DNA from: an uncultured virus (IMG/VR IMGVR_UViG_3300046665_000306)
Lineage: Duplodnaviria; Heunggongvirae; Uroviricota; Caudoviricetes
DNA: 58,498 bases
Virus record (IMG/VR): IMGVR_UViG_3300046665_000306
Span: 62,001 to 120,498 of that record
Strand: one strand, 5' to 3'
Positions within the stretch are counted from its first letter, which is position 1. Every line of letters begins with the position of its first letter. Positions 1-55,229 of the stretch are shown one piece after another. The notes under the pieces are model-generated. The model ran no database searches and was not told where the DNA came from. It saw only the letters and a program-made list of their open reading frames with translations. A program made the translations under genes and the position numbers.

Positions 1-89
1 TCATTTAAGGTTCAATTCATTCCTGTCGGTGATCAAGCCGGTCGAAATGAATCAGGCTAACAGTGCTCTACCAACTGAGCTAACCCCAG
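1..89 (-). ncRNA. 5' part of a tRNA-like RNA with an expanded anticodon arm (3' end outside window)
   Basis: Minus strand reads CTGGGGT-TA-GCTC-AGTTGGTA-GAGC-A-CTGTT (canonical acceptor 5' strand, U8A9, D arm). No 7-nt anticodon loop follows; instead a long hairpin (ATTCATTTC...GGAATGAAT) runs off the window edge. Confidence 0.7.
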
Positions 90-129
90 AAATCTTCTTC
101 AACCGTGGTTGAGGAAGCTTTATGTAATT

Positions 130-377
130 TGGTCCAAGAGAATGGATTCGAACCACCAACCCCACGTTTTCTACCAATCCTTTTCAATTCCATTGTCGCG
201 GTACTAAGTCTCTTTCATGAGTTGATCTGACTCACTACTTAATCCTTTTCAACGGCAATGTCCTATCCAATTCCATCTAATGCTGTAACACGATTTGTCA
301 CATCGTTGCACTAAATAAGGCCGTGGTGCTCTACCTGCTACCTTTTGACACAAGGCATACTTTGGAGCTACCCTTGG
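130..377 (-). ncRNA. 248-nt tRNA-like RNA: acceptor stem, D stem, anticodon stem, T arm and CCA intact; 33-nt D loop and 155-nt insert replacing the anticodon loop
   Basis: CCAAGGG(377-371)/CTCTTGG(140-134)+A+CCA; GCTC/GAGC D stem; CCACG(326-322)/CGTGG(166-162); GGTGG-TTCGAAT-CCATT T arm. Confidence 0.8.
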
Positions 378-412
378 TTGAAACAAAAAGACTTTCGTCC
401 TCTTGTTATTCC

Positions 413-441
413 TATGTAAGACATTCGTTTCGTTTTGTCAA
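413..441 (-). promoter_or_regulatory. sigma70-type promoter upstream of the tRNA-like RNAs
   Basis: TTGACA-17 nt-TACATA on the minus strand, ~35 nt upstream of the 248-nt RNA. Confidence 0.55.
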
Positions 442-525
442 ACAGTTTTTTCAGTCTCTTCGAAATTAATTTTTATAACTTCTTCAAACCTGTGAAGACT
501 TGGTCAAAAATTTCTTGTTCGGTCA

Positions 526-912
526 TTAGATATATTTCTCCACCTTAACGTAGTGTTCTTTCGCCGTCTCAATGAGACGTTGCTTCATATCTGCTGGACT
601 TTTGGCAAAATCGTGAGCCCGCTGTAACTCGCGTAGGAACCAAATCAGGTTCTCAGAAAAATTATCCATAAAGTATCTCACGCCAGTAACAGCCATACTT
701 TCAAATTCTTCCTTGTAATCCGCATCTGGCAAGATATGCCCTGCGGCGCAGCGGCAATCATTAGCACCGCGATACTTGCACTGAATATAACTTGGATCAA
801 TATCCCACATCACACCTACCTGCTCAGGCACGACAGACTTGATAAAACCCTGCTTTTCAAGGGCGCTAAACACGACGTGAAAAAGTTCTTGCTCATTCGA
901 AAATTGTGTCAT
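526..912 (-). CDS. conserved-type phage hypothetical protein (C-x-YR...RC-x-AG motif), paralog of 893-1234
   Basis: CKYRGANDCRCAAGHILPDADY aligns with the neighbour's CRYRNKRKKLRCTAGWLIPDSDY. Confidence 0.75.
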   Translation of the reverse strand: MTQFSNEQELFHVVFSALEKQGFIKSVVPEQVGVMWDIDPSYIQCKYRGANDCRCAAGHILPDADYKEEFESMAVTGVRYFMDNFSENLIWFLRELQRAHDFAKSPADMKQRLIETAKEHYVKVEKYI

Positions 913-5198: not shown

Positions 5199-5399
5199 TC
5201 AGTAACGCCTCGCTAATTCTTGCCTAATCATTTCAATCTTAAGCGCTGCGCCGTGCCAGCTTTCGCCAATTTCAGCGCTATGATCTTCTAGCGCGATTTG
5301 CCATTCCAATGCGGAGCGCAGCTGAGCCGTTGTCATGGCGGATGCTTCTTGGCTCAATCTCTGGCGGCGCTCTTCCCTAGCTCTCTCATAATAGCTCAT
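5199..5399 (-). CDS. hypothetical protein
   Basis: Tiled ORF. Confidence 0.5.
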   Translation of the reverse strand: MSYYERAREERRQRLSQEASAMTTAQLRSALEWQIALEDHSAEIGESWHGAALKIEMIRQELARRY

Positions 5400-5812
5400 T
5401 ATATCATTCCCTTCACAACTTTCGAAGCCGTTTTACCGTCATACGATCCGGCGTAATTGTCTTTGAGATATTTCATCAAAGAACCCATGACCTTCTCTGT
5501 ACCACTTTTTTCGAGAATGTCAAGTATCTCTGTCTCACTAAGTTGCTTTGGAAGGAAAGATTCGATAATTTCCCTCTCGCGAAGTGATTTAGCGTTCTCA
5601 GGAACTACTAGCAAAAATTCAACCACCTTCTTTTCAAAAGATTTAAGGACTTTGACAGTGCCTTCCTCTGTCACTACCTTGACCCCGTCAATCATCTTAG
5701 CGTTAGATTCGATTTCACCAATGATGGTTGAGAGGAAGGCAGATGTTTCAGTGTCGCGAGCCTTACGGCTTTCGAGGAACTTGGATCGGATCAGAGTTAG
5801 TGTGTCACTCAT
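5399..5812 (-). CDS. GatB/YqeY-domain protein
   Basis: ARD...LSTIIGEI...E.EIIESFLPKQLSE.EI...MGSLMKYLK...YDGK pattern; start at ATG 5812 after AAGGAG. Confidence 0.8.
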   Translation of the reverse strand: MSDTLTLIRSKFLESRKARDTETSAFLSTIIGEIESNAKMIDGVKVVTEEGTVKVLKSFEKKVVEFLLVVPENAKSLREREIIESFLPKQLSETEILDILEKSGTEKVMGSLMKYLKDNYAGSYDGKTASKVVKGMI

Positions 5813-6022
5813 TGTTTTCTCCTTGTGATTCTTGCATGAAGTCGGAGACACGGCCATGATATTCGCCCTGCTCCTCCACATTGCTTTTCTTGTATATGTA
5901 ATTGAAGTCATCGGTCAAGAATTTAACCTGACCCTGATTGGGATTTTCAGTATTACAGAGGTTAAACAGGGACAAGAATCTTTTCCACATTTCGTCAATT
6001 TTGTTCATGTATGCCTCCTTTA

Positions 6023-6460: not shown

Positions 6461-7204
6461 TTACTTCAAATCCTCTCCATTTACTGGACTACATGTCGCG
6501 CTCAACAAATGAGGGTAAATTTCCCAATTACGCATCAGGAGCTTTAACCTGAAGCCGTATGACGTTGTGGTACAAATATTAAGGCCGGGAGGAACGGTAG
6601 CACTGACATAGTCGCTGTAGAACAGGCCATGGCCGTGCACCAAGCTCCAAAGGTGGTTGAACAACGTGCCTTCGATTCGAAAATAGATAGTGTCGTTCTC
6701 ATCCAATGGAAGGCGTGTCGCGCCTTGAACAGAGTGAATGTTGTTTTCCGAATCAATTTCTTGGCTGTTATGGAGGTAGATCGTCTCGTTGACTTTTGCG
6801 GTCAGGCCGTAACTCACCGTCTCTCCGACGAAGAATGTCAGGGGCCACAGGAAGAACCAAACAAAAATCACAGTGCTGGTCAAAAACGCTCCGGCTCTCA
6901 CTTTTGAGAACCGGAGATTTTCGAATTCGTCCCGCCGATACACGACAAGGCTCCAAAGGCGTCTGTACTGCTTCAGGAGCTTCCAGAACGGCCAACGCAC
7001 AACTTTCCATGTCGGAACACCCACGTTCCAGAACGACCACTGACACGCAGCTATGACCTGAAGAATGAACCTATGGAACATGTTCAAGTCTTCCGACATT
7101 CGCTCTATCCGGGATTCCGATTTTACCTTGGTCCTGTCTCGCTCAATTTTTTCTTGAGTCTCTCTGGCCCGCCGCATCTGTTCAAGAAGATCGTTGTCAG
7201 CCAT
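6461..7204 (-). CDS. membrane protein with C-terminal extracytoplasmic domain, coupled to the ClpB-like gene
   Basis: Hydrophobic segments (WSFWNVGVPTW; FLTSTVIFVWFFLWPLTFFV); start overlaps the ClpB-like stop. Confidence 0.75.
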   Translation of the reverse strand: MADNDLLEQMRRARETQEKIERDRTKVKSESRIERMSEDLNMFHRFILQVIAACQWSFWNVGVPTWKVVRWPFWKLLKQYRRLWSLVVYRRDEFENLRFSKVRAGAFLTSTVIFVWFFLWPLTFFVGETVSYGLTAKVNETIYLHNSQEIDSENNIHSVQGATRLPLDENDTIYFRIEGTLFNHLWSLVHGHGLFYSDYVSATVPPGLNICTTTSYGFRLKLLMRNWEIYPHLLSATCSPVNGEDLK

Positions 7205-9201
7205 TATTGTTCCTTCTCCACCTTAAATGATTTTGTTTCAGTATCATACCTTACAAAGAGCTTACCTGTAAAGCCATCAAGAGAGAAATCAGCGAAAATA
7301 GGTTCAAGATTGGTTTCGATATATCCCGGCAAGCCACGAGCCCCTTTGACAGGGTCGTAATGATCGGCACAGAAGTTTGTAATCGTGTTTCCCTGAATAG
7401 TGATAATAATCTCTTCCTCGCCGTAGACGTTAGAAATTTTATTAATTTCACGCATCACGATATGTTCGATATGCTCTACTTCAAGCTTTCTGAAGCAAAC
7501 AATGTTCTCACGACCCGCAAATCTGTTAAGAAATTCAGGACGATAGGTATTGTTAAGGTCTTCGAATGCAAGAGTTTCAGCTTCTTCCCACGTCAATTCC
7601 TCATTGAGGAAATGTGGCTGACCAATATTCGTTGTCATGATAATGATGGAATCCGCGAACGAAACGGTACGGCCCAAGTTATCAGTGAGGCGACCATCAG
7701 AAAGAATCTGAAGGAAGAGATTGAAAATCTGCGGATCAGCCTTTTCGATCTCATCGAAGAGGAGAATCTGATTAGGATTGTTCCGCATCAAATTGGTCAA
7801 AATACCACCAGCCTCGGCCAACTCGTAACCCGGAGGTGCACCGATAAGCTTTGCCACGGCATGCTTTTCCGAGTATTCTGACATATCGAAACGCGCCAGA
7901 GATTTCTCACTACCTAAGAGAATTGAGGCAAGAGCCTTTGCAATTTCGGTTTTACCGACACCAGATGGCCCGAGGAACATGAACGCGGCTTGTGGAGATT
8001 CCTTATTTCGACGCACCGCCCGAGCCACCTTAACGGCATTAGCCAACTTGCCCACTGCTAGAGGCTGTCCAAAGACACGCTGCCCCAACTCTGCCTCAAG
8101 ACCCTTCAGCTTTTCGCGCTCGTTTTCATTAAGCTTCGACGCCGCAATGCCAGAAATCATGGCAAACTCTTCCGTCACCATTTCCTTTGTCAGACGTAGA
8201 TTGGCATTGATTTCTAGCTTTAATTTATCAAATTCTGCCTTATTCGCATCAACTACTTTTTGGAATTCTTTAATAGTTTTGCGAAGTTCAACAACGGCGG
8301 GAGGCTCAATTCCGATATTGAAACTATCACCCTTTTCCTTGATTTCTTTTAGCCGCTGCTCGATATTTTCTTCAAGGTTGGCGATTTCAATTTCACCATC
8401 TCTTTTATTTTTATTAAATTCGCGCAATTTTGCAGAAACAGTTTCGTCTAGACCGGCATGAGCTTTGAGACGGTAACTGGCAAGGGCGCGATCCAGAAGC
8501 GTGACGCTACGCTCTGGCTGAGCACGGCTTAGACCGGGATCGCGGGTACGATATTTGTTCGTAAGTGCAATCGCCTCAAGAATAGCATCATCATTAATCG
8601 CAATTTCATGATATTTGGCTAGACCTTCAGACGCCTTCGTGACAATCTCATGAAGAGCTTCTTTGACAGGCTCAATCACGTCCATCATTGTGAAACATTC
8701 TTTTAGATCACTATGGACCCTCATGACAGTTTCAGCATCTTCGTCACGTGTCTCAAAGATGACCTGTGTCAGATTCCGCTTCACTGCCGACATAAGATCG
8801 TTGATGAAATGAACCGCGCCGTTGTTTCGACACGCCTCAATGAAATCACGAGTGTCTTCGATAATCAGAATGGAATCAGGTGTCTTTTCGAGGCGAGCCA
8901 TGATCTTTCGGAAATCTTCGCTCGTCTTATTGGAATCACCGGACGAGAAAAGCCTATCAGTATCGAGCCAGAACAGTCGCTTTGCCACGATATCGAACGG
9001 CGCATCTGGATCAGCCTTCTTCATCTGAAGCCCGAGGCAGAGCGCGGTAATGCCTACACCACCGGGACCGACAAGTACGACAGAATTTGCCGCGCTTCGC
9101 ATCAAAATAGCGCTTAACCTATCCAAATCGTGATTTCTACCAACGAGATTGAAACCTACGTGCTGCGCCAGATATTCAGAACCGCGAATCAGATAATCCA
9201 A
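7204..9201 (-). CDS. clpB: ClpB/ClpA-family AAA+ ATPase lacking the N-domain, with degenerate NBD1
   Basis: NBD2 motifs GPSGVGKTE, RFDMSEY, LIGAPPGY, LLFDEIEKA, GRLTD, RPEFLNR, GARGL; NBD1 GPGGVGIT and IIED; coiled-coil middle domain. Confidence 0.9.
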   Translation of the reverse strand: MDYLIRGSEYLAQHVGFNLVGRNHDLDRLSAILMRSAANSVVLVGPGGVGITALCLGLQMKKADPDAPFDIVAKRLFWLDTDRLFSSGDSNKTSEDFRKIMARLEKTPDSILIIEDTRDFIEACRNNGAVHFINDLMSAVKRNLTQVIFETRDEDAETVMRVHSDLKECFTMMDVIEPVKEALHEIVTKASEGLAKYHEIAINDDAILEAIALTNKYRTRDPGLSRAQPERSVTLLDRALASYRLKAHAGLDETVSAKLREFNKNKRDGEIEIANLEENIEQRLKEIKEKGDSFNIGIEPPAVVELRKTIKEFQKVVDANKAEFDKLKLEINANLRLTKEMVTEEFAMISGIAASKLNENEREKLKGLEAELGQRVFGQPLAVGKLANAVKVARAVRRNKESPQAAFMFLGPSGVGKTEIAKALASILLGSEKSLARFDMSEYSEKHAVAKLIGAPPGYELAEAGGILTNLMRNNPNQILLFDEIEKADPQIFNLFLQILSDGRLTDNLGRTVSFADSIIIMTTNIGQPHFLNEELTWEEAETLAFEDLNNTYRPEFLNRFAGRENIVCFRKLEVEHIEHIVMREINKISNVYGEEEIIITIQGNTITNFCADHYDPVKGARGLPGYIETNLEPIFADFSLDGFTGKLFVRYDTETKSFKVEKEQ

Positions 9202-9289: not shown

Positions 9290-10939
9290 TTAAATCTTGA
9301 AAGGCGTGTCTTCGGCAGACTTAGAAGGCTGTTCCGTCGCTTCGATCTTGATCGAAGAGTGAACCGAAGCATTTTCCTTGACCGCGTCCTGCACCGATGA
9401 AGCAAGTTCTCGGATCGATTCAAGGTTCTGTTCAAGTTCAGCCACGTTTTCGCGTGTGATCTTTGTGGCGTCGGCAACTACATCCTTGTACTGGTAAAGG
9501 TCTTCCATTGCCTTTACAAGCTCTTCGTTCACTTCGCCAGTTGCGACAGCCACTCTCATGCTTTCCTTCATAGCAATTTCGTTCGTCGCATCATTCATCT
9601 GAACCATTGTATCACGAGCAATGGTTGCACTTTCAGCAATTGCGGCTTGGCCCACGGCCTGAAGCACGGTAGAAAGTCGATCCGCAACGCCCGCAACGCC
9701 TTGAGTATGCATAACACGCACCTTCTCGACCTGAGACGAGTTTGAATCTGCCATGGTCTTAATTCGAACACTCTGCGTAGAAAGATCAGCAAAAGTCTTT
9801 TCAGTGTCAACGGCGGAACTTGAGAGCACAGTGAGATGATCGTCAATGGCGCGAAGTTCATTGTCTCGCTTCATCTTAGTGATCATTGATTCTTCTTCGG
9901 CGGGTGTCGCTAGAGTTTCGCGCTTCGTCTTGATCTCCGAACCAGCTTCCTTAATACCTTCGCCAAGGATGGCATATGCACTAATCATGGATTGGTTAGC
10001 ATCGGTAAGATCATCGATTTGATCTCCCATACCGGTAAGACTGCCACGAATTCCGCCGAGAGCAGACTTAGAAACTGCCACGAATTTCTTAGCCTTTTCA
10101 ACAGTGTTGGCAGAATTTCGCTGATGTTCTTCCGCCGAAAGATCGAGCATGGCGCGAATCGTAGCCTTGGCCTTGCCGAATTCCGAATCATCTTCAACAG
10201 AGACAGGAGCTTGAGCCGAAACTGCCGAAAGCTCTTGCTCCAAGCGAACAATATTGTCTTTGGCCTGAATGATAGAAATTTCATTCAAAGCGATCTTTTC
10301 GCGTGAGGATTGGCGCACCCCGAGCAGGCCGAACAGCGCTTTATCTTCGCTGAGTCGCGCATTTTCATTGGTAAGATCGTTGATCAGTTGCTGAGTTGTT
10401 TCAAAGCGCTGCTTAATGCCGTTGATCTTGCCGTTGAATTCTGTCTCAACGCTACGGTCGTTGCGAATATCTGAGAAGATTTCGTTGGTCTTCCCTTCTT
10501 TTCTCACAACGTGCATCGCGTCGATGATTTCAAGGATTGGCTTCATCGCTTCATTGAATTCGATAAGACCGTCATTCATTGTGGTATAAACTTGCTGAAG
10601 CTGAGCCGTGGTATTCGTATTGGTGACATCAATGATTTTACCAGCCATCGTTTCGCGCTGAAGCTGAAGAAATTCCTTGAATTCATCCAAAGCCTTAATC
10701 GTGGCCTTGTTTTCTTCCTTCGTGCCCACGGTAGCGAGAGTTTTCGCTACTGCTTTCTGCTTATCTTCCGGCGAAAGCTCAGGATTAAGTACGATCTTGT
10801 AGAACGTGTTAGCCGCGATATTTTCGGCCCGCGTATCCTTGGCCGTTTCGGTCTGTACCGTCTTGGCCTTGACCCCGGTAATTTCCGCGATTCGCGCCTG
10901 ACGTGCTTCCTTAAGCTTTGCTGCTCCAAAATCACTCAT
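9290..10939 (-). CDS. long coiled-coil protein (possibly TelA/KlaB-like)
   Basis: 549 aa, almost all heptad-rich helix, no Cys/Trp, short hydrophobic ALFGLLGV patch; family call tentative. Confidence 0.6.
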   Translation of the reverse strand: MSDFGAAKLKEARQARIAEITGVKAKTVQTETAKDTRAENIAANTFYKIVLNPELSPEDKQKAVAKTLATVGTKEENKATIKALDEFKEFLQLQRETMAGKIIDVTNTNTTAQLQQVYTTMNDGLIEFNEAMKPILEIIDAMHVVRKEGKTNEIFSDIRNDRSVETEFNGKINGIKQRFETTQQLINDLTNENARLSEDKALFGLLGVRQSSREKIALNEISIIQAKDNIVRLEQELSAVSAQAPVSVEDDSEFGKAKATIRAMLDLSAEEHQRNSANTVEKAKKFVAVSKSALGGIRGSLTGMGDQIDDLTDANQSMISAYAILGEGIKEAGSEIKTKRETLATPAEEESMITKMKRDNELRAIDDHLTVLSSSAVDTEKTFADLSTQSVRIKTMADSNSSQVEKVRVMHTQGVAGVADRLSTVLQAVGQAAIAESATIARDTMVQMNDATNEIAMKESMRVAVATGEVNEELVKAMEDLYQYKDVVADATKITRENVAELEQNLESIRELASSVQDAVKENASVHSSIKIEATEQPSKSAEDTPFKI

Positions 10940-11957
10940 AAATTTTCTCCTTTAGTTCGTTAACTTCCATTTTCTGCCCATGCATCCAATGTTTGGTGGT
11001 CTGTATATGACCTTTCCTTACACACTTTGCAACATATTTTTTGAATTCTCCGAAAGAAAATTCACTTGCACTCCTAACGACATAACCTTCATGATTGTCC
11101 CACGACAAAGCTATGTTTTTAATAAGTTTTTCGTCATACATGCCTCGATACAGAACAGGAACTGGCTCAATGTTTAATAGTTTAAACCACTCCAACGTCT
11201 CGTCCCATGAGAGACAAACGTTTTTATCGTTCCAGATGGAGAAGCCGTAAAAATAAGTTTCGAGATTATCATAACCGATGGAGTGTTTGGCATAAAGGTT
11301 TTCACCACAAACTCTCCAACGCTCAGGAATATCTACGGCAATGGAACTCCAAAAGTTTTTAACCCAATTGCGACTAGGATGATTCCTGCCATCAAGACTT
11401 CTGGCGTGAATATAATCGCTATAAAGCGTAGTGTTCTCACCATCCATTTTCTCCGTCACAACGACTTCCATACCGCTGAAAGCTGACATATCTCTTAGGA
11501 TACGATCATCCTCATTCATGCCGGGAGACCATGGAACATGAGTCGTGCGTGGATATTTGACATAATGAGTGAACAGTGGGAGCTTATCATGAAGTATCTT
11601 TTGAACCGATTCGTCAAAGAAAAGTTCTCCGATCAACCTAGTTCCATTCGGCAGGATTGGATTTCCCCATTTGTCATACACCTGATCATCATAGAAATGC
11701 TCAGGGATAACCTTCTTCGTGATCCCGGCACGTTCTCTGATTTCCTCGACTGAAATGTCTGTAGCCTCGCAAGCTATGTGGTGAATTCCGCAGACGCTGG
11801 CCCCGTTATCGAGATAATAACCACCATCGGAAAAGAGTCGGCGTTCCAAGATATGATGTGCGTCAAGCTTTCCACCTATTCCGCAAACGACACAGCGATG
11901 ACCGTCCCTGATAAAGACGCCCTCTCTGAAATCATCTCTGGTCAAAAGCTTTGCCAC
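10932..11957 (-). CDS. HNH domain fused to an ATP-dependent RNA ligase domain
   Basis: N-terminal RDGHRCVVCG..DAHHI..NGASVCGIHH; C-terminal KYPRTxH, TEKMDGEN (motif I), GENLYAKHS, EGYVVR, K.VR. Confidence 0.85.
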   Translation of the reverse strand: MAKLLTRDDFREGVFIRDGHRCVVCGIGGKLDAHHILERRLFSDGGYYLDNGASVCGIHHIACEATDISVEEIRERAGITKKVIPEHFYDDQVYDKWGNPILPNGTRLIGELFFDESVQKILHDKLPLFTHYVKYPRTTHVPWSPGMNEDDRILRDMSAFSGMEVVVTEKMDGENTTLYSDYIHARSLDGRNHPSRNWVKNFWSSIAVDIPERWRVCGENLYAKHSIGYDNLETYFYGFSIWNDKNVCLSWDETLEWFKLLNIEPVPVLYRGMYDEKLIKNIALSWDNHEGYVVRSASEFSFGEFKKYVAKCVRKGHIQTTKHWMHGQKMEVNELKEKIYE

Positions 11958-11958
11958 T

Positions 11959-12288
11959 TTAATAATCCGCCTCCGTCTGATATTTAAAATTCATATAACC
12001 GTCGAGATAATTTTCAATGTTAGCCGCCCCGACAGGATTTTGACTATGGACGTACCACTCAAAATCCGGCCCGATCAGTGTTCCACCTCTATCCTCATCC
12101 AGATCAACTAGATACTTGGCACACTCGTAGCCACTAAGGCTGTCATCTCCAAGATCGTGATCAAAGCTAATGAATTTGATCGGCGTTTTTGCGTAAAGCA
12201 CTGCGTCAACGAATTCGTTATAATTCCTTACAATAACGAAGTCAAGGTAATTCGCGGGCAGGCGTTCGTCATCTAGAAAAATGTTCAT
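11959..12288 (-). CDS. cyclic-phosphate-processing receiver-like domain protein
   Basis: IFLDDER, ISFDHDLG, SGYEC, VHSQNPVGA motifs; adjacent to an RNA ligase. Confidence 0.8.
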   Translation of the reverse strand: MNIFLDDERLPANYLDFVIVRNYNEFVDAVLYAKTPIKFISFDHDLGDDSLSGYECAKYLVDLDEDRGGTLIGPDFEWYVHSQNPVGAANIENYLDGYMNFKYQTEADY

Positions 12289-12473
12289 CAAGTCACCGCG
12301 AAATAGATGCACCATGCCAGCAGTGATACAATCACAGCCGTTCCCATAAAAAGAGGAGCAAAAAACGCTCCTACCAAGGGATCATCTTCGCGCATGACGA
12401 GAATTACCGCAGTCGTTATACTAATAAAAGTAACAAGGGCAGGAATACCCCAATAACCAATAACAATTGTCAC
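12288..12473 (-). CDS. small two-TM membrane protein
   Basis: Two hydrophobic helices. Confidence 0.55.
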   Translation of the reverse strand: MTIVIGYWGIPALVTFISITTAVILVMREDDPLVGAFFAPLFMGTAVIVSLLAWCIYFAVT

Positions 12474-21980: not shown

Positions 21981-22628
21981 ATGAATAAGTATTGGGGCAG
22001 CTTGAATTGGGGCACGATCCTCACAGTGATCACTTACGCCATCGGCTCAGTATTGGGTCTGGTTGATGTGCATAATTTTAACTATGTCGAATTTTTCGCG
22101 ATCTGGACCAGCTATGTTTGCACCCTGATGTGCGTGTTCCAGACGAGGTGGAATTACCCGCTCGGCGCGGTTTCTACCATTCTCTACGCCATTCTATCTT
22201 ATCAAGCCAATCTCCCCGCCGTTGGGCTGTTCAACATTCTCCTATCGATCAATTTGATTTATGGCTGGTTCCGTTGGCGCAGCGATGATGTGACTCGGCC
22301 CGTTACCAATCCTAATGCGGCATGGTGGCTCGGATATGTCGGGATCGGGTTGGCCACTTATCTGATCCTAACCATTGTCAATGGTTACTTTGGCTACGAC
22401 CAGACTTGGGTAGACGTTACTACAGCTGTAGTTTATGCCGTGGCTCAAGCCATGCTCGACAACAAACATCGCACATCGTGGACCGTATTCTTTGTCCTCA
22501 ATGTCTTGTCGATCTACCTTTATTTCAAGCAGGAAGCTTATTTCGTGGTTATCCAATACGTTTACTTCCTCGGAAATACACTTTATGGTCATTTTGAATG
22601 GCGTAAGTCAGAAGAAGTTTTCAATTAA
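21981..22628 (+). CDS. pnuC: nicotinamide riboside transporter PnuC
   Basis: Multi-TM; WNYPLG, YGWFRW, D...AV..VAQ.ML, W..F..LN, YG...W motifs; nadR nearby. Confidence 0.85.
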   Translation: MNKYWGSLNWGTILTVITYAIGSVLGLVDVHNFNYVEFFAIWTSYVCTLMCVFQTRWNYPLGAVSTILYAILSYQANLPAVGLFNILLSINLIYGWFRWRSDDVTRPVTNPNAAWWLGYVGIGLATYLILTIVNGYFGYDQTWVDVTTAVVYAVAQAMLDNKHRTSWTVFFVLNVLSIYLYFKQEAYFVVIQYVYFLGNTLYGHFEWRKSEEVFN

Positions 22629-34251: not shown

Positions 34252-34291
34252 GAAGATTCCGCTTGACAAAAGCGGAATCTTCTGTTATAAG
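34252..34291 (+). promoter_or_regulatory. extended -10 promoter of the nadM-nadV operon; -35 sits in the loop of a 13-bp inverted repeat
   Basis: TTGACA(34263)-17 nt-TATAAG with TG at -15/-14; GAAGATTCCGCTT/AAGCGGAATCTTC. Confidence 0.65.
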
Positions 34292-34328
34292 TCGAATGTT
34301 AAATGAAATGGCAAGAGAAGGAGTTTCT

Positions 34329-35399
34329 ATGCCGGGTATTAAATACGACTACGGCGTCTTCATTGGACGCTATGCACCAATGCACGACGGTCATTTTAAA
34401 GTAATGACCGAAGCACTTGAGCAATGCGATTATTTGATCGTAGTTTGCGGTTCCGATAATATGGCGCGGAACACCAGAACCCCCTTCACAGCATTAGAGC
34501 GTCAACACATGATTCGTCTAGCCACGAATCATAATGAACGGATTCTGCTTACAAGTGTTGGCGATTATCCTTACAATGATAATCTCTGGCTCGCAGAGGT
34601 TCAGCGCGCCGTAAATGAAGCCATCGTGTTGAACGAAAAGCAGCACACAGTTAGTTACACGAATAAAGGCTTTAAAGATTATAACTACAAAATAGCTTTG
34701 GCCGGAATGCACAAAGATGCCAGTAGTTTTTATCTGAAGAAGTTCCCTCAATACGAATCTATTGCAGTGACGCCTGACATGATCGGGAGTGTTGTACTGA
34801 GTGCTACCGAAATCAGGACAAAACTTTTCACCGGAGCGTTTGATACGGTGAAGCACTTGCATCCAGAGGTACAATCCCTAATTCTTGGTGACATGAATGC
34901 GCGCCCTGATATTTGGGACAGGCTTCGATCCGATTGGGAATATGAACTAGGCTACGAAGCGAAATGGGGCAAAGGTCCACACACCACGGTAGACAATGCT
35001 GTGATCCAAGCCGGTCATATCCTTCTCATCCAGAGAGGGAATGAGTATGGCGAAGGTCTATATGCTCTTCCGGGTGGTTTTGTAAATCGTGAACGATTGC
35101 TTCACGCAGCTGTTCGAGAACTTCGCGAAGAGACTAAACTAAAAGTACCTGAGAAGGTTCTTTTTGGCTCATTAAAGGCTGTTAAGGTCTATGATGATCC
35201 ATTTAGGAGCAATCGCAGTCACATCATCACTCACTGCCACAAATATGTGCTTGAAGATGTGAGCGCTGGCCTTCCCAAAGTCAAGGGTAGTGATGACGCC
35301 AAATGGGCAGGTTGGGTGCCTATTTCTGAACTAAAACAAATGCGTGGTCAGTTCTTTGAGGACCATGAGAGTCTTATCCAGTCAATTTTAACAGCATAA
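34329..35399 (+). CDS. nadM: bifunctional NMN adenylyltransferase / Nudix ADP-ribose pyrophosphatase (NadM-Nudix)
   Basis: FIGRYAPMHDGH, SATEIR; Nudix box PGGF...AAVRELREET, GSDDA, FEDH; AAGGAG SD before ATG 34329. Confidence 0.92.
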   Translation: MPGIKYDYGVFIGRYAPMHDGHFKVMTEALEQCDYLIVVCGSDNMARNTRTPFTALERQHMIRLATNHNERILLTSVGDYPYNDNLWLAEVQRAVNEAIVLNEKQHTVSYTNKGFKDYNYKIALAGMHKDASSFYLKKFPQYESIAVTPDMIGSVVLSATEIRTKLFTGAFDTVKHLHPEVQSLILGDMNARPDIWDRLRSDWEYELGYEAKWGKGPHTTVDNAVIQAGHILLIQRGNEYGEGLYALPGGFVNRERLLHAAVRELREETKLKVPEKVLFGSLKAVKVYDDPFRSNRSHIITHCHKYVLEDVSAGLPKVKGSDDAKWAGWVPISELKQMRGQFFEDHESLIQSILTA

Positions 35400-35414
35400 A
35401 TGAAGGAGCTTCAT

Positions 35415-36818
35415 ATGTTTAAACGTAATCCCGTAATCTCAACAGACAGTTATAAAATTTCACATTTTAAGCAGTATCCTCCCGGTACTACTGAAGTAAG
35501 CTCATATATTGAATCTCGCGGCGGGCCATTCAATAATGTTGTCTTCAATGGCCTCCAAGGCTTTATGATGGAGAAACTTGAAGGTCCAAGAATTACCATC
35601 GAAGACGTTTTCAACGCAGAAAAAGTCGCGGAAGCTCATGGCGAACCTTTCAACAGGGAAGGTTGGGAGCGTATTGTTTATAAGCACGGCGGCATGTACC
35701 CTGTAGAGATTCAAGCCCTTCCCGAAGGATTTGTGACACGTCCCGGCGTTCCTTTGGTACAAATTAAGAACACTGATCCTGAACTTCCATGGCTGACTTC
35801 TTATCTGGAAACTTCTTTGCTGCGCTCGATATGGTTCCCGGTAACGGTAGCCTCTCTCAGCCGTTCTATCAAAGAAGTTATTTATGATAACCTGAAAGCG
35901 ACTTCTGATAATCCAGAAGCCGAACTTCCGTTCAAGCTGCACGATTTTTCGGCTCGCGGCGTATCTTCTCAAGAAAGTGCAGAGATTGGCTCAACTGCTC
36001 ACCTCCTAAACTTTATGGGAACGGATAGCATTGAGGCAATTCCTTACTTGCAATACGTCTACGGCTATGCAGACATGCCGGGATATAGCATTGCTGCATC
36101 CGAGCATAGCACTATCACTAGTTGGGGCAGGGAAAATGAAATTCTTGCCTACAGTAACATGATTGAGCAATTCGGCGGCGAAGGAAAAATCTACGCCTGC
36201 GTCAGTGACAGTTACGATATCTATAAAGCTGTGACTGAAATGTGGGGCAATGTGCTCAAGGAAAAGATTATCGCTAAAGGTGGAACCTTGGTGATCAGGC
36301 CAGACAGCGGTGATCCTGTAGAAATCACGCTTGAAGTCGTGAAGCGATTGGATGACGCATTTGGCAGCACCATTAATTCTAAGGGTTACAAGGTTCTACA
36401 TCCCTCGGTTAGAATTATTCAGGGTGATGGAATTAACATTGATTCTATTAAAGCGATAGGTGAAAACTTTAAAGCCAATGGATATAGTGGTTCCAATATA
36501 GCGTATGGTATGGGCGGCGCTCTTCTTCAGCGAATTGATCGTGACACGATGAAATTTGCTATGAAGGCAAACGAAATTGTAGTCAATGGCGAACCTCGCG
36601 AAGTCTACAAAGACCCTGTTACTGACACTGGCAAGCGCTCCAAGCGAGGTAGACAAGCCGTTGTAGCTTCCCATCATGGACACATTGTGATCCCTGAGAA
36701 GGATTGGATAGGCACAGGAGAACATAACTTCCTACAGCCTGTGTTCCGAGACGGCGTTATTCTAAAGCGTTGGACTTGGGATGAAGCTAGGGCTTACGCC
36801 TCGTTAAACACTATGTGA
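35415..36818 (+). CDS. nadV: nicotinamide phosphoribosyltransferase (Nampt/NadV)
   Basis: TDSYK.SH..QYP, HDFSARG, SEHS, VSDSYD, IRPDSGDP, GMGGALLQ, K.SK.GR. Confidence 0.95.
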   Translation: MFKRNPVISTDSYKISHFKQYPPGTTEVSSYIESRGGPFNNVVFNGLQGFMMEKLEGPRITIEDVFNAEKVAEAHGEPFNREGWERIVYKHGGMYPVEIQALPEGFVTRPGVPLVQIKNTDPELPWLTSYLETSLLRSIWFPVTVASLSRSIKEVIYDNLKATSDNPEAELPFKLHDFSARGVSSQESAEIGSTAHLLNFMGTDSIEAIPYLQYVYGYADMPGYSIAASEHSTITSWGRENEILAYSNMIEQFGGEGKIYACVSDSYDIYKAVTEMWGNVLKEKIIAKGGTLVIRPDSGDPVEITLEVVKRLDDAFGSTINSKGYKVLHPSVRIIQGDGINIDSIKAIGENFKANGYSGSNIAYGMGGALLQRIDRDTMKFAMKANEIVVNGEPREVYKDPVTDTGKRSKRGRQAVVASHHGHIVIPEKDWIGTGEHNFLQPVFRDGVILKRWTWDEARAYASLNTM

Positions 36819-43529: not shown

Positions 43530-43862
43530 TTGATGTACGGAGTAGAAAAAATAACGCTGACGAGGCCTGAGTACAATCTCATGCAACGTCGGCTCGCAAA
43601 ACTAGCTGCATTGGAAAGTCGCGGCGTCAATTATTGGGAATTTCATGACGAAGCGCTGATTGAATGGAAACGTGAAGAAGCGCTAAGCGATTTACTTTCC
43701 GCAATTATTGATGAAATTAACGACTTCCTAACCGAAGCTGAAATAGATCAACCCGCTGGTTATGGCTGTGGATATTCGATTACATTTGACGAGGGTCAGA
43801 TGGAAAATATCTTAAAAGGCTTTGCCGATAAATATGTTAGAATTAAGACCGATGACAGATGA
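43530..43862 (+). CDS. hypothetical protein
   Basis: L.ALE..GV.NW motif. Confidence 0.6.
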   Translation: MMYGVEKITLTRPEYNLMQRRLAKLAALESRGVNYWEFHDEALIEWKREEALSDLLSAIIDEINDFLTEAEIDQPAGYGCGYSITFDEGQMENILKGFADKYVRIKTDDR

Positions 43863-46075: not shown

Positions 46076-46312
46076 CTACGACAACTATTGATAAAGTTGA
46101 TATTTTAGACACTCTCAACGCGGCTGAAGATTACGGTTATTTTAAGCCTATCATTCTGCAAACATTGACGGCGTGGTACGGCCCTATCACTGTGGCTGAG
46201 ATTGCAGCCTTTGCCGAAAGCTATCTAGAAGAGGATGGCTATAACGAAAATGATGTAGATTTTACCATAGAAAATATTACTTACATTTTTAAGATGTATG
46301 GGAAAATTATTG

Positions 46313-46750
46313 ATGCGTGATATTATTGTCGATCTAGACGGCACGGTTGCGGACTGTAGCCATCGCCAGCATTACGTGCAATCCAAACCATCAAACTGGA
46401 AAGCCTTCGAAGCAGGTATTCCTCATGATACGCCACACCAGCACGTCATCGATCTGGTCAACGCGCTCTATGCCGCTGGCTGGCGCGTCGTGCTTTGCTC
46501 CGGTCGTGGCGAGCAATCCAGAGACCATAGCGTAACATGGCTTGAGAAGCATGACGTAAATTATCATGCCCTTTATATGAGAGCGCGTAACGATAGCCGC
46601 CGCGATGATATCGTCAAGATGGAGCTTCTTGATCAAATTATTGCAGATGGTTACAACCCTTCGTTTGTATTAGACGATCGAGATCAAGTTGTAGTTGCTT
46701 GGCGAGCCCGAGGTATTCCCTGCTTCCAAGTCGCGCCGGGAGATTTTTAA
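46313..46750 (+). CDS. HAD-family polynucleotide 3'-phosphatase (PNK phosphatase domain)
   Basis: DLDGT, SGR, MR...D.R.D..VK, DDRDQVV..WR..G..CFQV..GDF. Confidence 0.9.
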   Translation: MRDIIVDLDGTVADCSHRQHYVQSKPSNWKAFEAGIPHDTPHQHVIDLVNALYAAGWRVVLCSGRGEQSRDHSVTWLEKHDVNYHALYMRARNDSRRDDIVKMELLDQIIADGYNPSFVLDDRDQVVVAWRARGIPCFQVAPGDF

Positions 46751-52464: not shown

Positions 52465-52980
52465 TTGCCTAAAAATTTTATTATTGTGCTTGTCGGACCG
52501 CCCTGTACCGGCAAGTCCACGTTCCGCCAAAGACTGAAGCAAGACTTTGAATTCATGCCGATTTCTTCAGACGATTATATCGAGGAAGCGGCACGTCGCC
52601 ACAACACGACGTATAGCAAAATCTTTGAACACGCTGTGAGTAATGCTACGAAACAGGCCGAGCTTGATGCTAAATTAGCTTTGGATAGCAGTCTTGACGT
52701 GGTTTGGGATCAGACTAACTTAACCGAGAAGAAGCGGAAGAAAATCCTTGACAAATTCGATAATTATGTTAAGATATGCGTATATTTCGAGATTGAAGAC
52801 TCTTTCGAATGGATGAAGCGATTGTATCATAGGGCCGGAGCTGAAGGTAAGTACATTCCTTACCATATCATTGATGGTATGAACCGCACCTATCAGCATC
52901 CGGTTTATTCCGAAGGTTTTGATTACGTCACGGATCGACATGGCTTCAGTAATAATATTGTGAAGGAGTTAATTAAGTAA
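52465..52980 (+). CDS. P-loop polynucleotide kinase-like (AAA_33) protein
   Basis: VGPPCTGKST, ISSDD, VWDQTNL...R, EGFD. Confidence 0.85.
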   Translation: MPKNFIIVLVGPPCTGKSTFRQRLKQDFEFMPISSDDYIEEAARRHNTTYSKIFEHAVSNATKQAELDAKLALDSSLDVVWDQTNLTEKKRKKILDKFDNYVKICVYFEIEDSFEWMKRLYHRAGAEGKYIPYHIIDGMNRTYQHPVYSEGFDYVTDRHGFSNNIVKELIK

Positions 52981-54817: not shown

Positions 54818-55229
54818 AGCAATCAATATTATTTGGCCTTTTGTGCCACGGCACAGATACGAATACCTAGAAGAAAAGTACACTATTAAAAGTTTCGAAC
54901 TTTACGAGACCACCAGAAATTTAGCCGAGTTAGAAGAGTTTCAATTTAATAAGGGTCCGCGTTACGTCCCGTTCCCGGACTACAAATATTCGTTTAGGCA
55001 GCAAGAAATTGCCGACCAACGCCCCATCACTCGCATTAGTTTGAGTGCTGAGCCGCTTCGAAGTTATTATCAGATCGATACCTATCAATTAAGTTTCGAA
55101 GATAGTTCCGAATATATTAAAAATTTATTAGTACGACAATCCGGTGAACTTTTCAGAAAGAAGGGTGAGGCTGATATGCGTAAAGTTATTGAAAGTTTAT
55201 CCCAAAATGACGACAGGAAAATTTATTAA
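54687..55229 (+). CDS. hypothetical protein
   Basis: ORF; start probably downstream. Confidence 0.5.
   Translation: MISGSMTILITSYMDLLKKMIKIFKTDPETVTPFGIWLATGLNKAINIIWPFVPRHRYEYLEEKYTIKSFELYETTRNLAELEEFQFNKGPRYVPFPDYKYSFRQQEIADQRPITRISLSAEPLRSYYQIDTYQLSFEDSSEYIKNLLVRQSGELFRKKGEADMRKVIESLSQNDDRKIY

What the first reader, a model, noticed from the sequence alone, without database searches (positions are those of the whole stretch)
1..129. A second expanded-anticodon tRNA-like RNA in tandem suggests an array
Only 40 nt downstream of the first RNA's CCA, past a spacer hairpin (94-117, CTTCTTCAAC/GTTGAGGAAG), a textbook tRNA 5' half begins (CTGGGGT TA GCTC AGTTGGTA GAGC A). Again no anticodon loop or T arm appears within the expected distance; at least 58 nt of a different hairpin-rich insert follows instead. 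Two different acceptor sequences, each with a different giant anticodon arm, argue for a designed RNA class in a polycistronic transcript rather than a single accident (inference).
Basis: partly seen in the sequence, partly recalled or inferred. Interest (0 to 1): 0.8.

Follow-up and report, generated by a model that had tools for sequence, protein, structure and literature searches.

The report
Phage tRNA-Phe-derived RNAs with grafted domain
Two neighbouring genes in a soil phage encode tRNA-shaped RNAs, descended from a phenylalanine tRNA, in which a conserved, folded domain of about 145 bases sits where the anticodon loop should be; this RNA family matches nothing catalogued and its job is unknown.

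Summary
The second RNA starts at window 89 and runs off the window. Its missing 3' half lies just upstream in the same virus record: stem partner ACAG, T arm GGTGG-TTCGAGC-CCATC, acceptor ACCCCGG, then ACCA. It is 224 nt; the first RNA (window 377-130) is 248 nt.

There is no array. Each of three related phage genomes holds exactly two copies, and a methyltransferase gene follows the second.

The two inserts are not different. They are homologous and share one architecture, with covariation (56 pairs, 87.8% of cells paired against 34-49% in slid controls).

The insert is flanked by CCUGAUU and GAA-R-N. These are the two halves of a tRNA-Phe anticodon loop, as in the relative's own normal tRNA-Phe.

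No tool files it under a known family: Rfam gives no tRNA, group I intron or tmRNA match, and ARAGORN finds nothing by default.

Best reading (about 0.5): unspliced, tRNA-scaffolded non-coding RNAs whose grafted domain is the working part. Main rival (about 0.2): tRNA-Phe genes with a new kind of intron. Expression and function are untested.

The parts
1..89 (-). 5' 89 nt of RNA2 (224 nt in all; nt 90-224 lie outside the window at G000:C1:62000-61866). Acceptor 5' strand 89-83; D arm 80-65; anticodon-stem 5' strand 63-59; CCUGAUU relic of the tRNA-Phe stem plus U32-U33 at 56-50; hairpin Pa 52-15; conserved junction strand jA (UGAACCUUAAAUGA) 14-1.
   Evidence: Sequence; helices and covariation; model hit of 157.5 bits; CCUGAUU compared with the relative's tRNA-Phe.
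94..117 (-). Spacer hairpin between RNA1 and RNA2 (10 pairs, one C.A mismatch on the minus strand). Only three U follow it on the minus strand. A near copy lies upstream of RNA1 in relative G002.
   Evidence: (z -3.96).
130..377 (-). RNA1, 248 nt. Acceptor 377-371 / 140-134, then ACCA 133-130. D stem 368-365 / 331-328, with an extra hairpin inside the D loop (357-352 / 344-339). Anticodon stem CCACG/CGUGG 326-322 / 166-162. Insert homologous to that of RNA2. T arm 157-141.
   Evidence: model hit of 149.1 bits.
413..441 (-). Promoter-like site: TTGACA (441-436), 17-nt spacer, TACATA (418-413). It is conserved as TTGACA-N17-TAGATA in G002 and TTGACA-N17-TATATT in G001. The simple scanner did not call it because the last base of the second hexamer is A.
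   Evidence: Alignment; scanner result. Promoter function is inferred.

Best explanation
RNA1 and RNA2 are two paralogues of a small family of phage non-coding RNAs descended from a tRNA-Phe(GAA).

Shown:
- Each keeps a full acceptor stem (C1-G72, A73, encoded CCA), a D arm and a T arm.
- A structured domain of about 141-148 nt sits between the two halves of the old anticodon loop. CCUGAUU lies on the 5' side, and a 7-nt stretch NN-GAA-R-N lies on the 3' side.
- The domain is a three-way junction. It has a variable hairpin (Pa), a long irregular rod (Pb-Pd-Pc) and two long, sequence-conserved junction strands.
- The rod carries two AGUA/GAA motif pairs arranged like loop-E or sarcin-ricin S-turns.

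Inferred mechanism:
- The RNAs are made early from a host-type promoter.
- They are cut out like tRNAs (RNase P at the 5' end, trimming to the encoded CCA) and are not spliced.
- The tRNA body supplies processing, stability and recognition by factors that read tRNA-Phe, possibly including charging by PheRS.
- The grafted domain is the payload. It binds or diverts a host or phage factor such as a protein, the ribosome or a tRNA-directed defence nuclease.

Which factor it binds is not known.
For: Family and structure:
- The 3' half is present.
- Six copies exist in three genomes: own G000, G002 and the complete G001.
- On the six-row alignment A4, 56 proposed pairs are 87.8% paired, against 34.5-49.0% when the 3' partners are slid. 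23 pairs change on both sides, against 3-9 when slid. 0 of 500 shuffles reach the observed covariation score.
- Acceptor, D-loop hairpin, anticodon stem, Pa and Pb each carry double changes.

tRNA-Phe origin:
- The normal tRNA-Phe of G001 has the anticodon arm CCUGA-UUGAAGC-UCAGG.
- All six RNAs have CCU(G/U/A)AUU at the 5' edge of the insert and GAA-R-N at the 3' edge. R2 of G001 has GAAGC exactly.
- ARAGORN in intron mode calls RNA2 of G000 and of G002 tRNA-Phe(GAA).

Against splicing into a decoding tRNA:
- U33 would be present in only 2 of 6 if the 7-nt stretch is taken as the loop.
- Cutting at U33|G34 would leave 7-9 extra bases between the D stem and a 4-bp stem.
- RNA1 carries a second, covarying expansion in its D loop.
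- ARAGORN's intron calls disagree between orthologues: Phe i(33,131), Phe i(32,148), Gly i(35,152), and none for 3 of 6 by default.
- G001 already encodes a normal tRNA-Phe among its 15 tRNAs.

Not a mobile repeat: the model finds only two copies per genome.
Against: - No expression data exist. Only DNA runs hold the stretch, so neither transcription, nor the ends, nor the absence of splicing is shown.
- Single-sequence folding is not unusually stable (z -0.55 and -1.03).
- Only six sequences from three related genomes support the structure, so relatedness inflates the shuffle control. The 3-bp helix CCU/GGG and the S-turn reading rest on invariant bases, without covariation (helix 5).
- For RNA2 an alternative pairing, CCUG with CAGG, competes with the anticodon-stem pairing and cannot be excluded from the RNA2 rows alone.
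- Similarity of the tRNA body to tRNA-Phe is only marginally better than to other tRNAs (34 against 32 of 41 positions).
- The phage carries three RNA ligases, a PNKP phosphatase domain and an AAA_33 kinase-like domain, the kind of enzymes a protein-dependent splicing route would use.
- In all three genomes a frame stays open from inside RNA2 into the methyltransferase gene.
Confidence: 0.5

Rival explanations
1. They are tRNA-Phe(GAA) genes interrupted by a new class of structured intron in the anticodon loop. The intron would be removed either by itself or by phage enzymes (an endonuclease plus the phage's kinase/phosphatase and RNA ligases), giving decoding tRNAs.
For: - The insert sits exactly inside the old anticodon loop, between CCUGAUU and GAA-R-N.
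- For R2 of G002, ARAGORN at its default threshold removes 148 nt and obtains a 76-nt tRNA-Phe(GAA).
- A strongly conserved fold would suit a ribozyme.
- Phage tRNAs with unclassified 'enigmatic introns' are in print for Lak phages (PMC6784885, passages read).
- The window encodes Rnl1-like and Rnl2-like ligases, a third RNA ligase, a PNKP phosphatase and an AAA_33 kinase-like domain.
Against: - No group I intron match even at E up to 10 or up to 1.
- The insert (141-148 nt) is shorter than the smallest group I introns that I recall (about 200 nt).
- The supported helices are nested, with no P3/P7-type pseudoknot.
- There is no conserved U.G pair at the putative 5' splice site and no conserved G at the end of the insert.
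- No choice of junction gives a canonical anticodon arm in all six copies. U33 is present in 2 of 6, or else 7-9 extra bases remain after position 26 with a 4-bp stem.
- R2 of G001 has only 3 standard pairs in the anticodon stem.
- RNA1 has a second expansion in the D loop.
- G001 has its own intact tRNA-Phe.
Confidence: 0.2
2. RNA2 (with RNA1) is mainly a cis-acting leader of the methyltransferase operon. The tRNA-like fold would direct RNase P or RNase E cuts that set the 5' end, stability or translation of the downstream mRNA. Alternatively it could contain the true upstream start of a longer methyltransferase.
For: - RNA2 is followed by the same small methyltransferase gene in 3 of 3 genomes. 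The start codon lies 14 nt after the CCA in G000 and G001.
- A GAAAGGA stretch followed by AUG, GUG or UUG lies inside the insert.
- The frame from there runs open into the methyltransferase gene in 3 of 3 genomes.
- Differences between G000 and G002 in that stretch fall 0, 3 and 7 on codon positions 1, 2 and 3.
Against: - RNA1 has the same domain but only a 4-6-codon frame there and stops in all frames.
- In G001, RNA1 stands apart from the methyltransferase gene, behind a terminator-like hairpin and another ORF.
- Differences between G000 and G001 show no codon bias (9, 14, 13), unlike the methyltransferase gene itself (17, 13, 47 between G000 and G002).
- The G of the GGA stretch covaries with its pairing partner (AU in 3 rows, GC in 3, pair 137/177). 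That points to a helix, not a free ribosome-binding site.
- The methyltransferase domain matches its relatives from residue 2 onward, so no N-terminal extension is needed.
Confidence: 0.1
3. They are decaying tRNA pseudogenes that were hit by an insertion sequence, with no function of their own.
For: They escape tRNA finders. R2 of G001 has a weakened anticodon stem.
Against: - Both paralogues are retained in three genomes whose methyltransferases are only 51-84% identical.
- Compensatory changes occur in 23 of 56 pairs.
- The insert length is fixed (160-nt spacing in all six).
- A promoter-like site is conserved upstream.
- The insert is not repeated elsewhere in the genomes.
Confidence: 0.03

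Closest known systems
tmRNA (SsrA)
   Same: The acceptor stem, T arm and CCA are formed by the two ends of the RNA, with a large structured insertion taking the place of the anticodon arm. Some phages carry tmRNA genes (architecture and phage carriage recalled, not from a call).
   Different: - ARAGORN's tmRNA search finds none in the six RNAs or in the window and loci, and no Rfam tmRNA family matches.
- The D arm here is complete.
- There are no pseudoknots in the supported model and no conserved tag frame.
- The anticodon relic is Phe.
- None of the three genomes encodes SmpB.
Bacterial Y RNA YrlA (Rfam RF02553)
   Same: It is a non-coding RNA with a tRNA-like module made of a T arm, a D arm and an acceptor-like stem. 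It gave the only weak Rfam hit here. The paper 'Bacterial noncoding Y RNAs are widespread and mimic tRNAs' (PMC4201824) was seen only in a search listing with the start of its abstract.
   Different: - The score is 18.8 bits against a gathering score of 69.
- The match runs from the T arm of RNA1 across the spacer to the D arm of RNA2, so it is an artefact of the tandem layout.
- In YrlA the RNA ends lie at the anticodon side. Here they form the acceptor stem with CCA.
- None of the three genomes has a Ro60 (TROVE) gene.
tRNA genes with group I introns in the anticodon loop (cyanobacteria and some proteobacteria)
   Same: A structured insert of a few hundred bases or less lies inside the anticodon loop of a bacterial-type tRNA gene (recalled).
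   Different: - There is no RF00028 match at permissive thresholds.
- The insert is smaller.
- The helix topology is different.
- There is no conserved U.G pair or terminal G.
- Removal does not restore a canonical anticodon arm.
Enigmatic tRNA introns of Lak megaphages
   Same: These are phage tRNA genes that are longer than expected, carry conserved inserts and could not be classified with Rfam (PMC6784885, passages read).
   Different: - They were predicted with eukaryote-type intron settings in otherwise normal tRNAs of several identities.
- No structured domain shared between paralogues was reported in the passages read.
- The phage lineage is unrelated (gut Prevotella phages of about 540 kb).
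- Their supplementary tables were not read, so sequence likeness was not tested.
Engineered tRNA scaffolds for recombinant RNA
   Same: The anticodon stem-loop is replaced by a payload RNA, while the tRNA body gives correct processing and stability in bacteria. The principle is recalled. PMC3753655 was seen only as a search listing.
   Different: Those are man-made. Here the design is natural, conserved, duplicated, and keeps the GAA anticodon relic.
ROOL and GOLLD phage RNAs
   Same: They are large ornate RNAs of unknown function encoded in phages and prophages, often near tRNA genes. They assemble through kissing loops (bioRxiv 10.1101/2024.12.08.627333, passages read). Here the apical loops hold self-complementary stretches of 4-6 nt in 10 of 12 cases.
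   Different: - There is no Rfam match to either family.
- The RNAs here are much smaller (224-248 nt) and are fused into a tRNA body.
- The self-complementary loop stretches are not beyond chance (12-49% of shuffles reach them).

Membership tests
Canonical tRNA (Rfam RF00005; ARAGORN) | 7-bp acceptor stem with discriminator base and CCA end | tested here: met
   helix 1: 100% of cells paired, and 5 of 7 pairs change on both sides. A73 and CCA are present in 6 of 6.
Canonical tRNA (Rfam RF00005; ARAGORN) | D arm and T arm with GG and TTCRA loop motifs | tested here: met
   GGTAGAGC and GGTTCGA are invariant in 6 of 6. T stem 100% paired (helix 11). RNA1 has an extra hairpin in its D loop.
Canonical tRNA (Rfam RF00005; ARAGORN) | 5-bp anticodon stem closing a 7-nt loop with U33 | tested here: not met
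   About 145 nt lie between the stem strands. U33 is present in 2 of 6 if the 7-nt stretch is read as the loop. R2 of G001 has 3 standard pairs in the stem.
Canonical tRNA (Rfam RF00005; ARAGORN) | Recognition by the family model or finder | tested here: not met
   No RF00005 hit at gathering score or at E up to 10. ARAGORN at default finds 0. Positive control: the phage's four normal tRNAs score 54.7-73.4 bits.
Group I intron (Rfam RF00028) | Match to the family covariance model | tested here: not met
   No hit at E up to 10 in window 1-600, or at E up to 1 in L002 and in the relatives' loci.
Group I intron (Rfam RF00028) | U.G pair at the 5' splice site and a conserved terminal G | tested here: not met
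   In the alignment, the U of AUU pairs with A in most rows, and the base before GAA is C, U, A, A, A or U.
Group I intron (Rfam RF00028) | Self-splicing | not testable with these tools
   No RNA run holds the stretch. A bench assay is needed.
tmRNA | tRNA-like domain plus tag reading frame; detection by ARAGORN or Rfam | tested here: not met
   ARAGORN -m finds 0 of 6. No Rfam tmRNA hit. No conserved frame in RNA1. No SmpB in the 3 genomes.
YrlA / Y RNA (RF02553) | Score above the gathering threshold; ends forming the Ro-binding stem; neighbouring Ro60 gene | tested here: not met
   18.8 bits against 69, spanning two RNAs. TROVE is absent from 3 of 3 genomes, with the control search positive in 2 control genomes.
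tRNA-Phe descent (not membership of functional tRNA-Phe) | GAA anticodon with flanking loop and stem sequence like a tRNA-Phe | tested here: met
   CCU(G/U/A)AUU ... GAA-R-N in 6 of 6, against CCUGA-UUGAAGC-UCAGG in the tRNA-Phe of G001. Body similarity alone is inconclusive.
Functional Phe-accepting tRNA | Charging by PheRS | not testable with these tools
   A73, G34-A35-A36, U20 and G44-U45 are present in RNA2. The list of identity elements is recalled, not tested.

The most novel reading that the evidence does not exclude
These are natural 'tRNA-scaffolded' effector RNAs. A tRNA-Phe mimic that can still be processed, and perhaps charged, carries a rigid domain with two S-turn-like modules in place of its anticodon loop. 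The phage would use it early in infection for one of three ends. It could trap a host factor that reads tRNA-Phe, such as an anticodon-directed defence nuclease, PheRS or a modification enzyme. It could enter the ribosome in a tmRNA-like way and change translation. Or, through its self-complementary apical loops, it could assemble into a larger RNA particle.
Probability: 0.15. Interest if true: 0.85.

Novelty: new variant of a known kind. Interest (0 to 1): 0.62.

Why it matters
tRNA-shaped RNAs that do something other than decode, such as tmRNA, Y RNAs and viral tRNA-like ends, have each opened a piece of biology. Phage-encoded tRNAs are now tied to escape from tRNA-cutting defences.

Here a phage lineage has kept, duplicated and conserved a tRNA-Phe body with an ornate domain grafted into the anticodon loop. 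It sits beside an early methyltransferase gene, in a genome rich in RNA-repair and NAD-salvage genes.

If the RNA is stable and unspliced, it is a natural version of the tRNA scaffold used in the laboratory, and a candidate new anti-defence or translation-modulating RNA. If it is spliced, it is a new intron class in bacterial viruses.

Either outcome can be tested with a Northern blot and a splicing assay. The family is small (three metagenomic genomes), which limits how general it is.

Tried and rejected
- No RNA holder listed. The look-up of sequencing runs returned 7 DNA runs from rhizosphere metagenomes and no RNA run.
- Read laying on 4 runs gave only contig pieces. One 925-nt contig in X6 joins a 20-nt D-arm match to a 35-nt match of the 3' half, skipping 167 nt. 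Its flanks are unlike this phage and one side is only 20 nt, so I read it as an ordinary tRNA of another genome, not as an insert-less allele. I could not fetch it.
- Wider homologue hunts found nothing beyond G001 and G002:
  - blastn against 50,697 phage records gave one 31-nt match.
  - Four pattern scans of viral contigs. In one search, 12 of 14 stretches were ribosome-site-plus-start look-alikes.
  - One scan of metagenome contigs gave 28 stretches, none real.
  - One scan of genome contigs gave 1 stretch, a chance match.
  - Protein-guided searches with the methyltransferase and the upstream 128-aa protein added no new genome.
A model of the insert was used instead.
- Self-complementary apical loops were tested as a sign of dimerisation. 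They are not beyond chance: 234-977 of 2000 shuffles do as well.
- Coding potential of the frame running from RNA2 into the methyltransferase gene gave mixed results and I judged it incidental.
- The methyltransferase fold came out at mean pLDDT 61.6, too poor for a fold search. Its target, DNA or RNA, stays open. PHROG families annotated 'DNA methyltransferase' match at E 1.8e-20, while KsgA/Erm-type rRNA adenine methyltransferases match at E 2.6e-5 in PDB and 1.8e-6 in NCBIfam, far below their cut-offs.
- Pairings between junction strands jA and jB, and between GAAC and the T loop, were considered. They were left unassigned because the bases are invariant.
Full report
WHAT IS THERE

Read on the minus strand, the first 480 bases of the window hold two tRNA-shaped genes.

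RNA1 runs from window 377 to 130 and is 248 nt long. It has these parts:
- Acceptor CCAAGGG/CTCTTGG, followed by ACCA.
- D stem GCTC/GAGC around an enlarged D loop.
- Stem CCACG/CGTGG.
- T arm GGTGG-TTCGAAT-CCATT.

The window then ends inside RNA2.

The window is G000:C1:62001-120498 of a 120,498-base virus record that CheckV rates 66% complete. Reading the record upstream gives the rest of RNA2...ACAG GTGTC GGTGG TTCGAGC CCATC ACCCCGG ACCA. The predicted partner of CTGT, a TTCGA-type T loop and an acceptor strand complementary to CTGGGGT (one G.U pair) with ACCA are all present. RNA2 is 224 nt long (G000:C1:62089-61866).

Fourteen bases after its CCA starts a 154-aa methyltransferase ORF. There is therefore no third unit.

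STANDARD FINDERS DO NOT RECOGNISE THE TWO RNAS

- ARAGORN at default finds no tRNA or tmRNA in the window or in the 11-kb locus.
- Rfam gives nothing at gathering score.
- At E up to 10 on bases 1-600, Rfam gives only YrlA and CrcZ. YrlA scores 18.8 bits against a gathering score of 69. Its alignment runs from the T arm of RNA1 across the spacer to the D arm of RNA2, so it is an artefact of the tandem layout. CrcZ scores 9.9 bits.
- There is no group I intron, tRNA or tmRNA family hit.
- As a positive control, the same library finds the phage's four ordinary tRNAs at 54.7-73.4 bits.

RELATIVES

The downstream methyltransferase led to two other IMG/VR records (22 candidate stretches, 2 confirmed).
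- G002 (119,575 bases, 65% complete) has a methyltransferase 84% identical to the one here.
- G001 (184,940 bases, terminal repeats, 100% complete) has one 51% identical.

Both carry an RNA2 homologue directly upstream of that gene. Both also carry an RNA1 homologue. In G001, RNA1 sits at the other end of the linear record. Between it and RNA2 lie:
- a 12-bp stem enclosing a T-arm-like hairpin;
- a terminator-like hairpin;
- a 161-aa ORF.

Every other search added no further member:
- blastn against 50,697 phage records found one 31-nt match.
- Four pattern scans of viral contigs found only G001 and G002 (with checks).
- One scan of metagenome contigs gave 28 stretches, none real.
- One scan of genome contigs gave one chance match.
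- Three protein-guided scans added no new genome.

A covariance model of the insert finds exactly two copies in each of the three genomes, at 122.7-159.7 bits. The next best places score 12.5 and 10.3 bits. The family, as far as these collections show, has six members in three related phages.

The terminase of this phage is only about 36-42% identical to those of its nearest cultured matches. These are large siphoviruses of alphaproteobacteria and one Microcystis phage. DNA runs that hold the locus are rhizosphere metagenomes.

ARCHITECTURE

The inserts of RNA1 and RNA2 align along their whole length. The distance from CCTNATT to the GTTC of the T loop is 160 nt in all six copies. They are therefore homologous, not 'different' arms. 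The bodies are related too. For example, the acceptor of RNA1 in G001 (CCGGAGU/ACUUCGG) is close to that of RNA2 in G002 (CCGGGGU/ACCUCGG). The simplest history is one ancestral chimeric RNA that duplicated before the three phages split.

I proposed a structure from per-sequence helices and tested it on the MAFFT alignment A4. The model has 56 pairs in 11 helices. Results:

| Measure | Observed | Partners slid by 1-3 columns | Shuffles reaching it |
|---|---|---|---|
| Cells forming standard pairs | 87.8% | 34.5-49.0% | 0 of 500 |
| Pairs changed on both sides | 23 | 3-9 | 0 of 500 |
| Covariation score | 0.402 | 0.071-0.164 | 0 of 500 |

With six related rows the shuffle control is generous, but the slid controls keep relatedness and still fall far short.

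Helices with double changes:
- acceptor (5 of 7 pairs);
- the extra hairpin in the D loop of RNA1 (2 of 6);
- anticodon stem (3 of 5);
- Pa (4 of 8);
- Pb (6 of 11, although RNA1 and RNA2 are out of register there in MAFFT; per-sequence pairing is);
- Pd (1 of 3).

The 3-bp helix CCU/GGG never varies, so it is only a proposal.

In RNA2 numbering (window position = 90 minus i) the model is:
- Acceptor 1-7 / 214-220.
- D stem 10-13 / 22-25.
- Anticodon stem 27-31 / 187-191.
- CCU 34-36 with GGG 177-179.
- Pa 38-46 / 67-75, with a variable tip.
- Junction strand jA 76-89.
- Pb 90-100 / 150-160, with a central tandem G.A/A.G or A.A/A.G.
- GAA 101-103 facing AGUA 146-149.
- Pd 104-106 / 143-145.
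- AGUA 112-115 and GAA 135-137 flanking hairpin Pc (117-120 / 130-133).
- Junction strand jB 161-176.
- A 7-nt stretch 180-186.
- Variable loop GUGUC.
- T arm 197-213.

The two AGUA...GAA pairs have the polarity of loop-E or sarcin-ricin S-turns. That reading rests on my recall of the motif and on invariant bases, not on a test.

ORIGIN

G001 encodes 15 ordinary tRNAs, among them a tRNA-Phe(GAA). Its anticodon arm reads CCUGA-UUGAAGC-UCAGG. The six RNAs compare with it as follows:
- All six begin their insert with CCU(G/U/A)AUU.
- All six end it with NN-GAA-R-N.
- RNA2 of G001 has GAAGC followed by AACAGG.

The insert therefore sits between what were U33 and G34 of a tRNA-Phe, and both halves of the old loop survive as flanks. 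ARAGORN in intron mode calls RNA2 of G000 and of G002 'tRNA-Phe(GAA)'. Similarity of the D and T arms to tRNA-Phe is only marginally the best among 19 phage tRNAs (34 against 32 of 41 positions), so the anticodon relic is the real evidence.

All six copies have C1-G72 and A73, whereas the phage's own tRNA-Phe has G1-C72.

SPLICED OR NOT

I could not observe RNA, because no RNA run holds the stretch (recorded under Tried and rejected only). The sequence argues against a simple intron on several counts:
- There is no group I match. The insert is 141-148 nt. The supported helices are nested. There is no conserved U.G pair at the 5' edge and no conserved G at the 3' edge.
- No junction restores a canonical arm in all six copies. 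Cutting after position 31 gives loops with U33 in only 2 of 6. Cutting at U33|G34 leaves 7-9 extra bases after position 26, a 4-bp stem and an oversized loop.
- RNA2 of G001 has only three standard pairs in the anticodon stem.
- RNA1 has a second, covarying expansion in the D loop (helix 3).
- ARAGORN's intron calls differ between orthologues: Phe i(33,131), Phe i(32,148), Gly i(35,152), and none for the three RNA1 copies at default.
- G001 has an intact tRNA-Phe of its own.

In favour of the intron rival:
- The insert lies in the anticodon loop.
- ARAGORN gives a clean 76-nt tRNA-Phe call for RNA2 of G002.
- Unclassified tRNA introns have been reported in Lak phages (PMC6784885, passages read).
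- This phage has an RNA end-healing and sealing set: an Rnl2-like ligase next to a cyclic-phosphate receiver domain, an Rnl1-like ligase, a third ligase, a PNKP phosphatase and an AAA_33 kinase-like domain.

I put 'unspliced chimeric RNA' at about 0.5 and 'new intron' at about 0.2.

CONTEXT AND LIKELY WORKING

A TTGACA-N17-TA(C/G/T)AT(A/T) site is conserved about 30-70 nt upstream of RNA1 in the three genomes. The simple scanner did not call it here. On the minus strand the spacer hairpin between RNA1 and RNA2 is followed by only three U. RNA2 abuts the methyltransferase ORF in 3 of 3 genomes, and a cupin-type gene (PHROG 'cysteine dioxygenase') follows further on in at least two.

The methyltransferase has an NPPH motif. 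Its matches point two ways:
- It matches PHROG families annotated as DNA methyltransferase at E 1.8e-20.
- It matches KsgA/Erm-type rRNA adenine methyltransferases far more weakly.

Its target is therefore unresolved, and the predicted fold was too poor to use.

From these facts I infer the following. The RNAs are transcribed early by the host polymerase. They are released by tRNA-processing enzymes and stabilised by the intact tRNA body. The conserved domain then acts as a platform that binds something. The retained GAA-purine stretch, A73, U20 and G44-U45 in RNA2 suggest that factors reading tRNA-Phe may still recognise it. My list of PheRS identity elements is recalled. What it binds is open: a tRNA-directed defence nuclease, PheRS, a modification enzyme or the ribosome. 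None of the three genomes encodes Ro60 or SmpB.

A LOOSE END

Inside the insert, GAAAGGA followed 7-8 nt later by AUG, GUG or UUG looks like a ribosome-binding site with a start codon. My first pattern in fact mostly caught real gene starts in other phages. In RNA2 the frame from there stays open into the methyltransferase gene in 3 of 3 genomes.

Four facts speak against translation as the main constraint:
- RNA1 has the same motif but only 4-6 codons after it.
- Differences between G000 and G001 show no codon-position bias: 9, 14, 13, against 17, 13, 47 between G000 and G002 in the methyltransferase gene.
- The GG of the motif covaries with a pairing partner.
- The methyltransferase domain aligns with its relatives from residue 2.

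COMPARISON WITH KNOWN RNAS, AND NOVELTY

Functionally the nearest analogies are:
- tmRNA, which has a tRNA-like top with a large insertion in place of the anticodon arm;
- the tRNA-like module of bacterial Y RNAs;
- laboratory tRNA scaffolds;
- the unclassified tRNA introns of Lak phages.

Membership of tRNA, group I intron, tmRNA and YrlA was tested, and each failed on at least one defining feature (see the membership table).

Three full-text searches turned up no description of a tRNA-Phe-derived phage RNA with such a domain. These searches are by word and cover open-access papers only, and I did not read supplements, so this is weak evidence of absence.

I rate it a new variant of a known kind (tRNA-derived structured non-coding RNA). 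It is real and conserved but rare, and its function is unproven.

Noticed in passing
window 10932-12315 (-), 46298-46750 (+), 48948-50129 (+), 52465-53528 (+), 55144-56256 (+): A rich RNA end-healing and sealing set: an Rnl2-type RNA ligase next to a cREC_REC cyclic-phosphate receiver domain, a PNKP HAD phosphatase, a T4 Rnl1-type ligase, an AAA_33 kinase-like domain plus a metallophosphatase, and a third RNA ligase. This is typical of phages that repair tRNAs cut by host anticodon nucleases.
   Followed up: partly
window 21981-22628, 34263-35399, 35400-36818 (+): An NAD salvage trio: a PnuC-like NMN transporter, an NMNAT-NUDIX fusion and a NAMPT. It looks like an NAD-replenishing counter-defence module.
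   Followed up: no
window 43530-43862 (+): A small protein matching the T7 gp5.9 RecBCD inhibitor family, PF25708, at E 4.5e-10.
   Followed up: no
window 5399-5911 (-) and 7204-9201 (-): A YqeY/GatB-like protein (PHROG name 'tRNA amidotransferase') and a 665-aa ClpB/ClpA-like AAA+ ATPase lie 5-9 kb from the two RNAs on the same strand.
   Followed up: no
L003 2575-2729 (G002, between RNA1 and RNA2) and L054 1741-1860 (G001, after RNA1): Extra structured elements that carry T-arm-like hairpins. G002 has two (GCCGG-UUCAAUU-CCGGC and GUAGGG-UUCAAGU-CCCUAC), with folding z -2.96. G001 has a 12-bp stem enclosing AAGG-UUCGAGU-CCUU, with z -5.43, followed by a terminator-like hairpin. There is no Rfam match. 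They are absent from this window.
   Followed up: partly
window 94-117; L003 about 2287-2311: The spacer hairpin between RNA1 and RNA2 in this genome recurs, nearly identical, upstream of RNA1 in G002. It may be a movable processing or punctuation hairpin.
   Followed up: partly
L002 9974-9387 (-); L004 230-832 (+): A reading frame stays open from inside the insert of RNA2, through its T arm and CCA, into the methyltransferase gene in 3 of 3 genomes. It is preceded by a GAAAGGA stretch and an NUG codon. I judged it probably incidental, but this is not settled.
   Followed up: partly
Apical loops of Pa and Pc in the six RNAs (window 36-25 for Pa of RNA2): Self-complementary stretches (UGAUCA, UAAUUA, UAGCUA, GAUC) occur in 10 of 12 apical loops. 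In G001 both paralogues share UAGCUA. Individually they are not beyond chance, since 12-49% of shuffles do as well.
   Followed up: yes
coded run X6, laid on L002 9862-9896 and 10064-10083: A 925-nt metagenome contig carries what looks like a normal-length tRNA. Its D arm is the same, its 3' half is 32 of 35 identical, and its acceptor also appears to start with C1-G72. Its flanks are unrelated to this phage. It could be a relative of the ancestral tRNA. I could not fetch it.
   Followed up: no
G000:C1:26977-27422 (L061 6977-7422): A 446-nt gap between tRNA-Leu and tRNA-Lys in the phage's normal tRNA cluster holds a GGTTCGATTCC T-loop-like motif that no finder calls.
   Followed up: no
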